DNA from: an uncultured Candidatus Saccharibacteria bacterium
GTDB taxonomy: Bacteria; Patescibacteriota; Minisyncoccia; Phycocordibacterales; UBA918
Assembly (NCBI GenBank): GCA_964492305.1
Contig: CAZBJN010000002.1
Location: 279-24,278 of the forward strand
Direction of reading: 5' to 3'
DNA length: 24,000 bases
Shown piece by piece: positions 9,561 to 9,749 of this stretch. The notes under the pieces are model-generated. The model was not told where the DNA came from. It worked only from the letters and a program-made list of their open reading frames with translations, and did no database searches. Within the stretch, counting starts at the first letter, position 1. Each line of letters begins with the position of its first letter. The translations under genes were made by a program, and so were the position numbers.

Positions 9561-9623
9561 GATCACGAATTACTAAGTATATTTGTTCGGCTTCGCCTCC
9601 AAATCTACTAAGTGTTCTCGACC
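9561..9623 (-). repeat. Copy A of a ~61-nt imperfect-palindrome repeat (end of the tRNA-Arg downstream module)
   Basis: In tRNA sense: GTCGAGAACACTTAGTAGATTTG-GAGGCGAAGCCGAA-CAAATATACTTAGTAATTCGTGAT. The two arms each carry an ACTNAGT box and are capped by the mini-hairpin GGC-GAA-GCC. Confidence 0.8.
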
Positions 9624-9660
9624 CCACCTCACTCGTTCGCAAGCTCACATCATTCCGGTC

Positions 9661-9749
9661 GGCACAGACGTACGCATCTGTCACAGGGCAGATGCTAAAG
9701 CAAAACACACAATCTATTAAGATTGTGTGTTTTGCTTTACGTCTGTGCC
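9661..9749 (-). other. 89-nt three-way palindromic unit overlapping the tRNA-Arg 3' end
   Basis: Arm 9738-9749 (tacgtctgtgcc, including tRNA nt 9746-9749) is the exact reverse complement of arm 9661-9672 (ggcacagacgta). The arms enclose a 19-bp terminator-like hairpin (9696-9714 / 9721-9739) and a 22-nt hairpin at 9674-9695. In tRNA sense the latter reads GCATCTGCC-CUGU-GACAGATGC, with one C-A mismatch. Confidence 0.8.

What the first reader, a model, noticed from the sequence alone, without database searches (positions are those of the whole stretch)
9561..9749. Third copy of the tRNA-linked module, downstream of tRNA-Arg
In minus sense, in order:
- The arm GGCACAGACGTA (9749-9738) includes tRNA nt GGCA.
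- A 19-bp hairpin follows (9739-9696).
- The 22-nt hairpin GCAUCUGCC-CUGU-GACAGAUGC follows (9695-9674), with a 9-bp stem containing one C-A mismatch.
- The exact complementary arm lies at 9672-9661.
- A weaker hairpin region follows.
- Palindrome copy A follows (9623-9561).

Copy A ends about 12 nt from the stop codon of the convergent membrane-protein gene, so the module fills the whole intergenic space. The Val and Arg arms are 9/12 identical, whereas their enclosed hairpins are unrelated.

Three out of three tRNAs in this window carry the module, on both strands and always in tRNA orientation.
Basis: seen in the sequence. Interest (0 to 1): 0.75.

Follow-up and report, generated by a model that had tools for sequence, protein, structure and literature searches.

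The report
Structured insertion element at tRNA ends
The sequence after tRNA-Arg is one copy of a previously undescribed family of small, non-coding, highly folded DNA elements that sit at the 3' ends of about half of the tRNA and tmRNA genes in Patescibacteria (CPR bacteria) and behave like site-specific insertions rather than a tRNA-processing signal.

Summary
All three tRNAs in the window carry the same layout: 12-nt arm, terminator hairpin, 9-bp CUG-loop hairpin, exact complementary arm, then a ~100-nt scaffold ending in a 63-nt imperfect palindrome.

- **Distribution.** The palindrome occurs in at least 117 Patescibacteria genome stretches. 118 of 150 covariance-model hits lie within 700 nt downstream of a same-strand tRNA or tmRNA. 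The only plus-strand hits beside minus-strand tRNAs are weak mirror matches.
- **Frequency.** About 40–55% of tRNA/tmRNA genes not selected for the element carry an inverted and/or direct copy of their own 3' region downstream, against 1–5% upstream.
- **Structure.** The scaffold fold is supported by covariation: 25 of 26 pairs show compensatory changes. No Rfam family matches.
- **Insertion behaviour.** Orthologous sites are empty or occupied. Elements are nested, stacked and 5'-truncated, and close strains differ by deletions.
- **CCA.** Presence is unrelated to encoded CCA (p = 0.9).
- **Type-2 order.** The order is regenerated tRNA 3' end, terminator, inverted site, scaffold, displaced tRNA 3' fragment.

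My best reading is a non-autonomous, tRNA/tmRNA-3'-end-specific integrative element, possibly integrating as a folded single strand in the manner of CTXφ. The mechanism is inferred. An RNA function is not excluded.

The parts
9745..9817 (-). tRNA-Arg(TCT). The gene encodes discriminator A followed by CA, not CCA.
   Evidence: ARAGORN; Rfam tRNA 60.4 bits.
9738..9749 (-). Arm S: the last 4 nt of the tRNA (GGCA) plus 8 nt of trailer.
   Evidence: Exact complement of 9661-9672. Paired in the minimum-free-energy fold.
9696..9739 (-). Hairpin 1: a 20-bp perfect hairpin with an A-rich 5' arm and a T-rich 3' arm. It occupies the slot of the tRNA's intrinsic terminator. It is unrelated in sequence to the hairpin 1 of the Val and Leu loci.
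   Evidence: I9. The equivalent hairpin at tRNA-Leu was called as a bidirectional terminator.
9674..9695 (-). Hairpin 2: a 9-bp stem (one C-A mismatch) with a CUGU loop. It belongs to the conserved CTGC/CTGT-loop hairpin class.
   Evidence: Loop statistics. The mismatch is a C-G pair in L118 and L127.
9661..9672 (-). Arm S' (the 'inverted site'): exact reverse complement of arm S.
   Evidence: Across loci such arms complement the adjacent tRNA end and its own trailer.
9624..9660 (-). Scaffold 5' domain: P1 (ACC/GGT), a GNA/GA internal loop, P2, and the short hp3 variant (AUGUGAGCUUGCGAACGA).
   Evidence: Part of covariance-model hit 9561-9662, 83 bits. P1 and P2 covariation.
9561..9623 (-). 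Palindrome A: an imperfect ~20-bp hairpin with a conserved G.T pair, an A x G mismatch, a bulged A and a T x T mismatch inside ACTTAGT/ACTTAGT. It is the oldest, most distal layer at this locus.
   Evidence: (D3, I2). Allelic series.
9885..9893 (-). Truncated duplicate of the tRNA-Arg 5' end (GCCCCTGTA) with its upstream CACCTG, about 75 nt upstream of the intact gene. Two hairpins lie between them.
   Evidence: Direct reading. L064 has a longer tRNA-Arg pseudo-copy at the same place.
10132..10333 (-). Type-1 element after tRNA-Val(TAC) (tRNA at 10329-10402). Components: arm 10322-10333, terminator hairpin about 10281-10321, hairpin 2 at 10259-10280, arm' at 10246-10257, and the scaffold with palindrome C.
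   Evidence: Covariance-model hit 10132-10247, 77.9 bits.
9966..10122 (-). Type-2 unit at the tRNA-Val locus. Components: a 17-nt inverted copy of the tRNA 3' end (10106-10122), a CUGC-loop hairpin (about 10088-10105), an inverted T-loop/T-stem (10073-10085), the scaffold with palindrome B (9978-10074), and a displaced direct copy of the tRNA T-loop/3' part, AAATCTCTCATC (9966-9977).
   Evidence: I18.. Covariance-model hit, 87.1 bits.
13805..14076 (+). Element after tRNA-Leu(GAG) (tRNA at 13723-13809, CCA encoded). Components: arm 13805-13816, terminator 13816-13857, hairpin 2 at 13859-13880, arm' at 13882-13893, scaffold 5' domain, palindrome E (13944-14007), and an extra distal palindrome D (about 14008-14076).
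   Evidence: (I1, I2, I10).

Best explanation
The 9561-9749 module is one copy of a family of small (about 130-250 nt), non-coding, strongly folded insertion elements. They occupy the 3' ends of tRNA and tmRNA genes in Patescibacteria, always in the orientation of the gene.

**Element layout**
- a new trailer and an intrinsic terminator for the gene;
- usually a conserved hairpin with a CTGC loop;
- an 'inverted site' complementary to the gene's 3' end plus that trailer;
- a conserved scaffold, here two short helices, a variable hairpin and a 63-nt imperfect palindrome.

**Two junction classes**
- Type 1 joins at the very end of the tRNA (..CACA). The window's Arg, Leu and proximal Val elements are of this class.
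- Type 2 joins in the T-loop (C56). The gene's 3' part is then regenerated on the left, and the displaced old 3' fragment is left on the right of the scaffold. The window's distal Val unit is of this class.

**Shown**
- target and orientation specificity;
- empty and occupied orthologous sites;
- stacking, nesting and 5'-truncated remnants;
- decay by deletion between close strains;
- structural covariation of the scaffold;
- no linked protein gene.

**Inferred**
- The elements are non-autonomous and are moved in trans by a host recombinase.
- The order site, body, inverted site, loop, site is what integration of a folded single-stranded circle gives when its stem (site paired with inverted site) mimics the target. 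CTXφ does this with XerCD.
- The irregular palindrome and the CTGC hairpin would then be protein-recognition or priming signals on the single strand.
For: **Specificity**
- The pattern scan returned at least 117 stretches, all but one (L014, filed as Patiriisocius) titled Patescibacteria/CPR or simply 'bacterium'.
- 103 of 128 exact palindromes lie less than 700 nt downstream of a same-strand tRNA and none lie on the opposite strand, across all isotypes.
- Most of the exceptions follow tmRNA 3' ends (..CCATCTCCACCA) or locus edges.
- 118 of 150 covariance-model hits lie in the roughly 10% of strand-positions that are within 700 nt downstream of tRNA/tmRNA genes.

**Frequency**
- The signature is present in 54% of bystander tRNA/tmRNA genes and 40-42% of an unbiased sample, against 1-5% in upstream controls.

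**Gain and loss**
- tRNA-Arg(TCT) followed by an rluD-like gene is empty in L185, L226, L190 and L124, and occupied in L229, L196, L132 and L175.
- The window's own locus is empty in L166 and differently filled in L064, L118, L127 and the window. The last three form a deletion series.

**Nesting and stacking**
- A type-C element is inserted into the palindrome in L064.
- L118 carries a 'graveyard' of palindrome 3' remnants, each followed by AAATCTC...
- L175 keeps only the 3' remnant of an older palindrome.

**Regenerated target plus displaced fragment**
- 84 of 176 genes have a direct copy of at least 10 nt of their 3' part downstream, against 4 upstream.
- This is the hallmark of integration into tRNA/tmRNA genes (PMC4383910).

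**Inverted site belongs with the regenerated copy**
- Where copy 1 and copy 2 differ, the arm complements copy 1 at 627 positions and copy 2 at 36.
- CTXφ attP(+) consists of two inverted dif-like sites folded in ssDNA, and both are retained in the prophage (PMC4246890; PMC3442271).

**Single-strand folding**
- 25 of 26 pairs show compensatory changes. 93.6% of cells are paired, against 73% in shuffles and about 30% in slid controls.
- G:T pairs number 70 and A:C pairs 34.
- The sense strand scores 87 bits and the antisense strand 29 bits.

**No local protein partner**
- No protein family is enriched near the elements.
- One Xer-like recombinase ORF was found in 1.6 Mb, and it is not adjacent to any element.
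- The window's genes are ordinary housekeeping genes.
Against: - No excised form, no recent identical copies and no recombinase link have been shown. Mobility is inferred from comparative patterns only.
- Long tRNA-specific inverted sites on more than 20 isotypes need either many cognate lineages or a way of re-templating the site. I cannot explain this.
- In L166 an element-free terminator already pairs GGCAC with GTGCC. Short arms reaching into the tRNA can therefore exist without the scaffold.
- At the window's own locus close strains differ only by deletions, not by new insertions.
- Occupied and empty alleles have different terminators (L064 against L166). The event therefore looks like replacement of the whole 3' flank, not a clean insertion.
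- The scaffold is conserved at about 85-90% identity across lineages whose proteins are only 50-60% identical. Its small helices with internal loops look RNA-like. A host function is therefore not excluded.
- No match was found in 2.9 million viral contigs.
Confidence: 0.5

Rival explanations
1. Cis-acting RNA module of tRNA transcription units. In read-through precursors the downstream arm pairs with the tRNA 3' end and trailer. The scaffold then recruits a factor for 3'-end maturation, fail-safe termination or degradation of read-through RNA, for example by creating an RNase III-type duplex.
For: - The module has strict sense orientation and sits next to tRNA/tmRNA ends.
- The arms are near-perfect: 1.6% mismatches over 5759 positions.
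- The scaffold shows covariation, a conserved G.U pair and an excess of wobble-compatible pairs on the transcribed strand.
- Sequence is strongly conserved across distant lineages.
- Nearly every tRNA at the window's locus and its relatives keeps some module.
Against: - An efficient-looking terminator lies between the tRNA and the arm, so the arm and scaffold are transcribed only on read-through.
- Half of the tRNAs lack the module, and orthologous sites are empty.
- There is no association with encoded CCA.
- Several unrelated scaffold families occupy the same slot. Copies are nested, truncated and stacked.
- A palindrome copy can be deleted between near-identical strains.
- The module also follows a few protein genes.
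Confidence: 0.2
2. The scaffold is a stand-alone small structured RNA gene. It hitch-hikes on tRNA promoters and is excised from read-through transcripts. In type-2 units the inverted site and the direct copy would form a tRNA-like acceptor/T minihelix, giving RNase P/RNase Z handles.
For: - In type-2 units the scaffold is flanked by segments that can form a 15-25-bp stem identical to the tRNA acceptor/T-arm.
- Structural covariation is strong.
- No Rfam family matches, so it would be a new RNA.
Against: - The inverted arm also complements the discriminator and trailer, which leaves no free 3' tail.
- The arm tracks copy 1, not copy 2 (627 against 36 positions). The proposed processing stem is therefore not the co-evolving pair.
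- Type-1 units, including the one in this finding, have no such stem.
- Copy 2 is visibly decaying (window: AAATCTCTCATCAC against ..ATCGC).
Confidence: 0.12
3. The same mobile element, but moved by a single-strand HUH (Y1) transposase, in the manner of IS200/IS605-derived palindrome-associated elements or REP/RAYT repeats. The left hairpin and right imperfect palindrome would be the two ends. The tRNA end ..CACA would be the short target, read by base pairing with the foot of the hairpin.
For: - The size and the two subterminal hairpins fit, and one hairpin is imperfect with conserved mismatches and a bulge.
- The elements are strand- and orientation-specific and carry no ORF.
- Type-1 inserts are flanked by CACA on both sides. 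Joining the L229 flanks gives ..GGGGGCACA+AATATATG, close to the empty L190 site.
- An internal sequence complements the left-flank target.
Against: - This does not explain type-2 units, with their 20-nt or longer tRNA-specific inverted sites and displaced tRNA fragments.
- No Y1 transposase was seen in the sampled loci. I did not search for one systematically.
- IS200/IS605 targets are 4-5 nt with no duplication. I recall this and did not test it.
Confidence: 0.12
4. There is no dedicated element. The arms and triplicated tRNA ends are by-products of replication template switching at terminator palindromes (quasi-palindrome extension and fold-back). The palindromes are simply hairpins that survive there.
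For: - The arms always match the local upstream sequence, whatever it is: tRNA, tmRNA or the end of a protein gene.
- The scaffold-free terminator in L166 already extends into the tRNA end.
- The sense-antisense-sense order resembles an inverted triplication.
Against: - It cannot account for a ~100-nt scaffold conserved in sequence and structure across at least 117 genome stretches, with compensatory changes.
- It cannot account for the conserved CTGC-loop hairpin.
- It cannot account for the fixed junction positions at C56 and at the 3' end.
- It cannot account for the strong preference for tRNA/tmRNA over the far more numerous protein-gene terminators.
Confidence: 0.05

Closest known systems
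Genomic islands and prophages integrated into tRNA/tmRNA genes by tyrosine integrases (Islander-type tDNA islands; PMC4383910)
   Same: - The targets are the 3' parts of tRNA and tmRNA genes.
- Orientation is fixed.
- The gene is regenerated by element sequence, and a displaced 3' fragment marks the far end.
- Tandem accretion leaves arrays of direct repeats.
   Different: - These elements are 130-250 nt, non-coding and carry no integrase.
- They carry an additional inverted copy of the site.
- They occupy about half of all tRNA genes of a genome and all isotypes.
- Some follow protein-gene terminators.
CTXφ and other IMEX elements: integration of a folded ssDNA attP(+) by host XerCD (PMC4246890, PMC3442271)
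   Same: - No own recombinase.
- Two inverted copies of the site pair in a single strand to mimic the duplex target.
- After integration both copies remain, giving the order site, body, inverted site, short loop, site.
- Tandem arrays form.
   Different: - The target here is tRNA/tmRNA ends, not dif.
- The elements are about 30 times smaller and carry no genes.
- The 'loop' is a conserved ~100-nt structured scaffold.
- No recombinase, ssDNA form or circle has been shown.
Integron attC sites
   Same: - An imperfect palindrome of about 60 nt.
- Conserved outer stem, unpaired or mismatched positions and a bulged base.
- Variable apical part with compensatory changes.
- A plausible role as a folded single-strand recombination site.
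   Different: - There are no R''/R' core sequences (RYYYAAC/GTTRRRY) on either strand, by direct reading.
- There is no integron integrase or attI and no cassette ORFs.
- The elements are linked to tRNAs.
IS200/IS605-derived palindrome-associated elements and REP/BIME repeats
   Same: - Short, non-coding, multi-copy and strand-specific.
- Built around imperfect hairpins.
- Located after genes and terminators.
- Mobilised in trans.
   Different: - Long tRNA-specific inverted sites and displaced tRNA fragments.
- Strict tRNA/tmRNA preference.
- No associated Y1 transposase was seen.
Bacterial MITEs (Correia, RUP, Rickettsia palindromic elements)
   Same: - Small, structured, non-autonomous repeats found in many copies.
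   Different: - There are no terminal inverted repeats of the transposon type.
- Copies within one genome differ by compensatory changes rather than being near-identical.
- Targeting is site-specific.
- The element brings a terminator and regenerates its target.
Rho-independent terminators
   Same: - Hairpin 1 is one: A-tract, GC stem, T-tract. At tRNA-Leu it was called on both strands.
   Different: - The palindrome, hairpin 2, the arms and the scaffold are not terminators. They have no T-run, have conserved sequence, and are rare after protein genes.

Membership tests
Intrinsic (Rho-independent) terminator | GC-rich hairpin followed directly by a T-run | tested here: not met
   This is met only by hairpin 1 at the tRNA-Leu locus (13829-13845, both strands). 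Palindromes A-E and hairpin 2 were not called and are followed by ACA, GCA or T-loop sequence.
Any described RNA family (Rfam 15) | Covariance-model match at or near the gathering score | tested here: not met
   E-value scans of the window and of 8 loci carrying other scaffold types gave only tRNA and tmRNA hits. The one hit overlapping the module, ohsC at 35.9 bits against a gathering score of 50, covers the tRNA end and hairpin 1.
tDNA-integrating island (tyrosine integrase type) | Target is a tRNA or tmRNA gene, with fixed orientation | tested here: met
   118 of 150 hits are downstream of same-strand tRNA/tmRNA genes. tmRNA loci include L013, L015, L020, L033, L068, L096, L112 and L114.
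tDNA-integrating island (tyrosine integrase type) | Regenerated target gene plus displaced 3' fragment as a direct repeat at the far end | tested here: met
   A direct copy of at least 10 nt is present downstream in 84/176 genes against 4/176 upstream. Copy 2 starts at T-loop C56 and carries its own diverged trailer and terminator. In the window it is 9966-9977. Type-1 units, including the finding, have only a 3-4-nt repeat (ACA/CACA).
tDNA-integrating island (tyrosine integrase type) | Element encodes an integrase next to the attachment site | tested here: not met
   No ORF lies within the elements. No protein family is enriched nearby. One Xer-like ORF was found in 1.6 Mb, and it is not adjacent to any element.
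IMEX / CTXφ-type folded-ssDNA integration | Two inverted copies of the site able to pair in one strand, both retained after integration, in the order site, body, inverted site, loop, site | tested here: met
   This order is seen in the window (Val unit 2; Arg/Leu/Val type 1) and in 106 modules that have both an arm and a copy 2. The arm matches the element-side copy (627 against 36 positions).
IMEX / CTXφ-type folded-ssDNA integration | Recombination by host XerCD at a dif-like site, with a single-stranded circular intermediate | not testable with these tools
   There is no dif-like sequence. No reads or biochemistry are available. Only the wobble asymmetry (70 G:T against 34 A:C) points to single-strand folding.
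Integron attC | R''/R' core sites RYYYAAC ... GTTRRRY at the base of the hairpin | tested here: not met
   The base of the palindrome is GGTCGAGA...TCGTGACC on the sense strand and GGTCACGA...TCTCGACC on the other. Neither fits, by direct reading.
MITE | Terminal inverted repeats and a short target-site duplication; near-identical copies in a genome | tested here: inconclusive
   There are no transposon-type TIRs at the two ends. Type-1 inserts are flanked by CACA (L229 against L190). Palindromes A, B and D are 86-92% identical, but the rest of each unit differs.
IS200/IS605-derived PATE or REP | Subterminal imperfect hairpins plus a Y1 (HUH) transposase somewhere in the genome | tested here: inconclusive
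   The hairpins are present. The transposase was not searched genome-wide because no complete genome was accessible.
Retron ncRNA | Inverted repeats flanking msr/msd, with an adjacent reverse transcriptase gene | tested here: not met
   The arms flank two hairpins, but no RT or any other ORF is adjacent. The neighbours are housekeeping genes.
Group IIC intron (terminator-targeting) remnant | Domain V (34-nt helix, catalytic triad, 2-nt bulge, GNRA loop) followed by domain VI | tested here: not met
   The 5' domain is two 3-bp helices separated by internal loops plus a variable hairpin. There is no Rfam group-II hit.

The most novel reading that the evidence does not exclude
The elements are a self-retargeting system. 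The inverted site is not inherited but is copied from whatever lies upstream of the terminator, by snap-back synthesis primed from the terminator/CTGC hairpin. The copy then serves as the guide or mimic that directs the scaffold, bound by an unknown conserved protein, to that gene's 3' end. That would be a programmable, nucleic-acid-templated way of targeting any tRNA, tmRNA or terminator. It would be distinct from CRISPR, bridge RNAs and classical att sites. Alternatively, the scaffold is a new ribonucleoprotein RNA attached to half of all tRNA genes in a major bacterial radiation.
Probability: 0.15. Interest if true: 0.9.

Novelty: new variant of a known kind. Interest (0 to 1): 0.72.

Why it matters
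Patescibacteria make up a large share of bacterial diversity and have tiny genomes with little spare DNA. Yet roughly half of their tRNA and tmRNA genes carry one or several of these 130-250-nt structured elements.

If the elements are mobile, they are among the smallest site-specific integrative elements known. They also regenerate their target gene and supply its terminator. That would expose a trans-acting recombination machinery in organisms that cannot be cultured.

If they are functional RNAs, they are a new, very abundant RNA class linked to tRNA expression.

There are practical consequences either way.
- They explain the hypervariable intergenic regions and partial tRNA copies seen in CPR assemblies.
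- They offer strain-level markers.
- tRNA and island-finding software should take them into account.

Tried and rejected
- **Rfam.** E-value scans of the window and of 8 loci returned nothing except tRNA and tmRNA.
- **Viral contigs.** The palindrome pattern gave 0 hits, so this is not a phage attP or a phage tRNA feature.
- **Neighbour-gene enrichment.** Across 117 loci no transposase, integrase or RT family is enriched. The top cluster is PilM, through synteny.
- **RNA-strand test on exact palindromes.** The apparent GU excess (159 against 40) came mostly from one conserved G.U pair fixed by my own search pattern. I redid the test on the covariance-model alignment without that pair.
- **G:T against A:C in the arms.** 25 against 14, too few mismatches to decide.
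- **First P1 register.** It was off by one, giving 27% of cells paired. After correction 87.5% are paired. Model R1 was built with the wrong P1 register but still finds the family.
- **Considered and rejected by reading the sequences:**
  - retron ncRNA (no RT);
  - group II intron domains V/VI;
  - integron attC core sites;
  - hammerhead and other small ribozymes (no core motifs, no Rfam hit);
  - a primer-binding site for mature tRNA (the arms complement the genomic trailer, not CCA);
  - a K-turn in the P1/P2 loop (register contradicted by the Watson-Crick covariation of column 11 with column 87).
- **Literature.** Five searches for a prior description found none, within an open-access-only library.
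Full report
**1. The observation**

ARAGORN finds three tRNAs in the window: Arg(TCT) at 9745-9817 (-), Val(TAC) at 10329-10402 (-) and Leu(GAG) at 13723-13809 (+) (confirmed by Rfam). Read in tRNA sense, the sequence after tRNA-Arg is exactly as described:
- arm GGCACAGACGTA (9749-9738);
- a 20-bp perfect hairpin (9739-9696);
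- the 9-bp CUGU-loop hairpin with one C-A mismatch (9695-9674);
- one G;
- the exact complementary arm (9672-9661);
- about 37 nt;
- the 63-nt palindrome (9623-9561), which starts 11 nt after the convergent ORF 9067-9549 ends.

tRNA-Val and tRNA-Leu have the same layout. The three regions fold far better than shuffles, with z-scores of -8.9, -11.3 and -12.4. The paired ACTTAGT motifs occur 5 times against 0 expected.

**2. Context**

The window is ordinary chromosomal DNA of a Patescibacteria (CPR) bacterium. Its genes include a sigma factor, RuvX, PilMNO, acylphosphatase, UppS, RluD, L19, ABC transporters, NUDIX and others. The closest relative among the fetched loci is a Candidatus Kaiserbacteria MAG, L064, at 85-100% amino-acid identity over eight genes. 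No mobile-element protein is encoded in the window.

**3. The element is larger and more conserved than the palindrome**

Alignment of many copies shows a ~100-nt scaffold with this order: (A/G)(A/G)G, P1 (GNC), G-N-A, P2, AUG, variable hairpin hp3, P2', GA, P1', GG, imperfect palindrome.

I built a covariance model from 27 copies. It finds 150 hits in 100 sources. On that alignment, with the P1 register corrected by hand and therefore independent of the model:
- 25 of 26 pairs show compensatory double changes;
- 93.6% of cells are paired, against 73% in column shuffles and about 30% when partners are slid.

Conserved irregularities are a G.T pair (138/150), an A x G mismatch, a bulged A, and a T x T mismatch inside ACTTAGT/ACTTAGT. 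Leaving out the conserved G.T, G:T pairs outnumber A:C pairs 70 to 34 (p = 5e-4). The sense strand scores about 87 bits where its complement scores 29. The tRNA-sense strand therefore folds as a single strand. This does not distinguish RNA from ssDNA. Rfam has no matching family.

**4. Distribution**

All but one (L014, filed as Patiriisocius) are titled Patescibacteria/CPR or simply 'bacterium': Nomura-, Kaiser-, Yonath-, Wolfe-bacteria, Paceibacteria and Minisyncoccia.
- 103 of 128 exact palindromes lie less than 700 nt (mostly 82-140 nt) downstream of a same-strand tRNA. None is opposite. All isotypes are represented.
- Most apparent exceptions follow tmRNA genes or locus edges. A few follow protein-gene terminators (L005, L023, L099).
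- Independently of any scaffold, 99/176 tRNA/tmRNA genes have an inverted copy of at least 10 nt of their own 3' region downstream, against 8 upstream. 84/176 have a direct copy, against 4 upstream.
- Among genes not used for ascertainment, 54% carry a signature.
- In contigs fetched only by a tRNA-Arg 35-mer, 42/100 tRNA-Arg genes and 69/174 other genes carry it, against 1-2% upstream.
- No copy occurs in 2.9 million viral contigs.

**5. Two junction classes and other scaffolds**

In type 1 the arm covers the last 4-5 nt of the tRNA plus the trailer. After the palindrome comes the discriminator followed by CA (ACA, or GCA for tRNA-Trp). The window's Arg, Leu and proximal Val elements are type 1.

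In type 2 the inverted segment is the reverse complement of tRNA positions 54-76 plus the trailer, often split by the CTGC hairpin. The scaffold is followed by a direct copy of the tRNA from C56 onward, with its own diverged trailer and terminator. The window's distal Val unit (9966-10122) is type 2.

The tRNA-Val T-stem has a G.U pair, and this shows the inverted segment is a true reverse complement and not a duplicate of the 5' strand.

Unrelated scaffolds occupy the same slot:
- type B (..GTACTG-hairpin-TGTAAG..);
- type C;
- a shorter A' palindrome.

Hairpin 2 belongs to a conserved class. CTGC is the commonest loop of perfect hairpins downstream of tRNAs (68/468 genes against 5 upstream).

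**6. Insertion behaviour**

- *Empty against occupied.* In contigs where tRNA-Arg(TCT) precedes an rluD-like gene, the start codon follows the tRNA within 2-10 nt in L185, L226, L190 and L124. In L229, L196, L132 and L175, 150-250 nt of module lie between them. The L229 insert is flanked by CACA on both sides.
- *The window's own locus* forms a series:
  - L166 has the tRNA, a plain terminator and then the convergent gene;
  - L064 has a type-2 unit with a type-C element inserted into the palindrome;
  - L118 has the same type-1 unit as the window, plus a second palindrome, a type-B remnant, a displaced tRNA fragment and palindrome A;
  - L127 is L118 with a 24-nt deletion;
  - the window has a further deletion between the two palindromes.
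- *Remnants.* After tRNA-Val in L118 there is a run of palindrome 3' remnants, each followed by AAATCTC...
- *Layers.* The distal palindromes A, B and D at the window's three tRNAs are 86-92% identical to each other. The proximal palindromes C and E are different variants. This looks like successive layers.
- *No enriched neighbouring protein family*.

**7.

The processing/CCA idea is not supported. CCA is encoded in 17% of tRNAs with the module and 17% without it (p = 0.90). The arm and scaffold lie beyond a terminator.

**8. Mechanism**

*Shown.* The elements are target- and orientation-specific, gained and lost, nested, structured single-strand elements without coding capacity.

*Inferred.* The regenerated gene plus displaced 3' fragment is the signature of integration into tRNA/tmRNA genes (PMC4383910). 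The additional inverted site, followed by a short structured loop, is the arrangement left by CTXφ. Its single-stranded genome folds two inverted dif-like sites into a duplex mimic of the target and is integrated by host XerCD, with both sites retained (PMC4246890; PMC3442271).

Three results are consistent with this:
- Where copy 1 and copy 2 differ, the inverted arm complements copy 1 and its own trailer (627 against 36 positions).
- Mismatches between site and inverted site cluster at the discriminator +/-5 nt. The rate is 29% at position 73, at most 8% in the T-arm part and at most 4% in the distal trailer.
- A Xer-like recombinase exists in these genomes but is not linked to the elements.

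I rate the general claim of a non-autonomous, site-specific insertion element at about 0.5. I rate the folded-ssDNA/tyrosine-recombinase mechanism at about 0.3.

*Unexplained.*
- How long tRNA-specific sites arise for every isotype.
- Why the whole 3' flank, terminator included, differs between empty and occupied alleles.
- Why short tRNA-reaching arms exist in a scaffold-free terminator (L166).
- What binds the scaffold.

**9. Novelty**

I found no Rfam family and no paper describing this in an open-access library. The nearest known systems each share some defining features and fail others, as set out in the membership table: tDNA islands, IMEX/CTXφ, attC, and IS200/IS605 PATEs or REPs. I file it as a new variant of a known kind, site-specific integrative elements, with a real chance that it is something more unusual.

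Noticed in passing
all tRNA genes of the window and of loci L001-L238: Position 74 is C in 96% of tRNA genes in these Patescibacteria. The dinucleotide after the discriminator is CA in 66%. Full CCA is encoded in only about 15-17%. The CA occurs equally with and without the element, so it is a lineage feature of tRNA genes. It hints at an unusual 3'-end maturation or CCA-addition route.
   Followed up: partly
window 9820-9900 (-); L064 1081-1290: Upstream of the intact tRNA-Arg lies a duplicate of its promoter-proximal flank and first 9 nt (CACCTGCCCCTGTA against CACTTGCCCCTGTA). Two hairpins lie between them. L064 has a longer tRNA-Arg pseudo-copy with a type-B scaffold in its T-arm position. 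The 5' sides of tRNA genes may be hit by similar insertions.
   Followed up: partly
L008, L024, L036 3740-3830, L046, L097, L108, L175 and others: A second, unrelated scaffold family (type B..GCCCGATTGAGC[hairpin]GCCAATTGGGGTACTG-NNNCC-TGTAAGG-NN..) and a third (type C: GTGAGAAATGGG..CATTTCGCAAGAC..GTACAGAATTCGTAGAATTC) occupy the same slot between an inverted and a direct tRNA T-arm copy. Neither matches Rfam.
   Followed up: partly
L118 1079-1474 (-); L064 about 1-470 and about 586-995: A 131-aa ORF with no Pfam match lies between the tRNA-Val element array and tRNA-Arg in close relatives, as two tandem paralogues in L064. It is absent from the window. It is an indel next to the element arrays and may be cargo.
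   Followed up: partly
L036 1937-2617 and 2857-3528: A LAGLIDADG-type homing-endonuclease ORF and an HTH protein flank tRNA-Met. The HTH protein family recurs in 5 loci.
   Followed up: no
window 9993-10020 (-), inside palindrome B: Sigma-70-like hexamers (TTTAGA, 16 nt, TATACT) lie within the palindrome stem in tRNA sense, at the conserved ..GATTTGGAG..AAATATACTTAGT.. positions. This may be chance, or a promoter or priming site formed in the folded strand.
   Followed up: no
window 4020-5489 (-): A 489-aa protein with a DUF5667 domain and long Asp/Glu-rich 9-nt-periodic repeats, seen as 19 copies of a 54-nt register.
   Followed up: no
window 12242-12883 (+): Ribosomal protein L19 carries a C-terminal extension of about 90 aa rich in Ala, Glu and Lys.
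   Followed up: no
L014 (JBLHQB010000003.1): This contig is filed as Patiriisocius sp. (Flavobacteriia). It carries three CPR-type palindromes after tRNA-Trp. Its ORFs clustered with ORFs of other loci, which are CPR-labelled. It is probably mis-binned. Several MAGs labelled 'Candidatus Saccharibacteria' may likewise carry only a generic label.
   Followed up: no
L166 (downstream of tRNA-Arg), L119: Scaffold-free tRNA terminators whose palindromic stem continues past the T-run to pair with the last bases of the tRNA (GGCAC...GTGCC). That is beyond where the transcript should end, which points to a DNA-level cause.
   Followed up: partly
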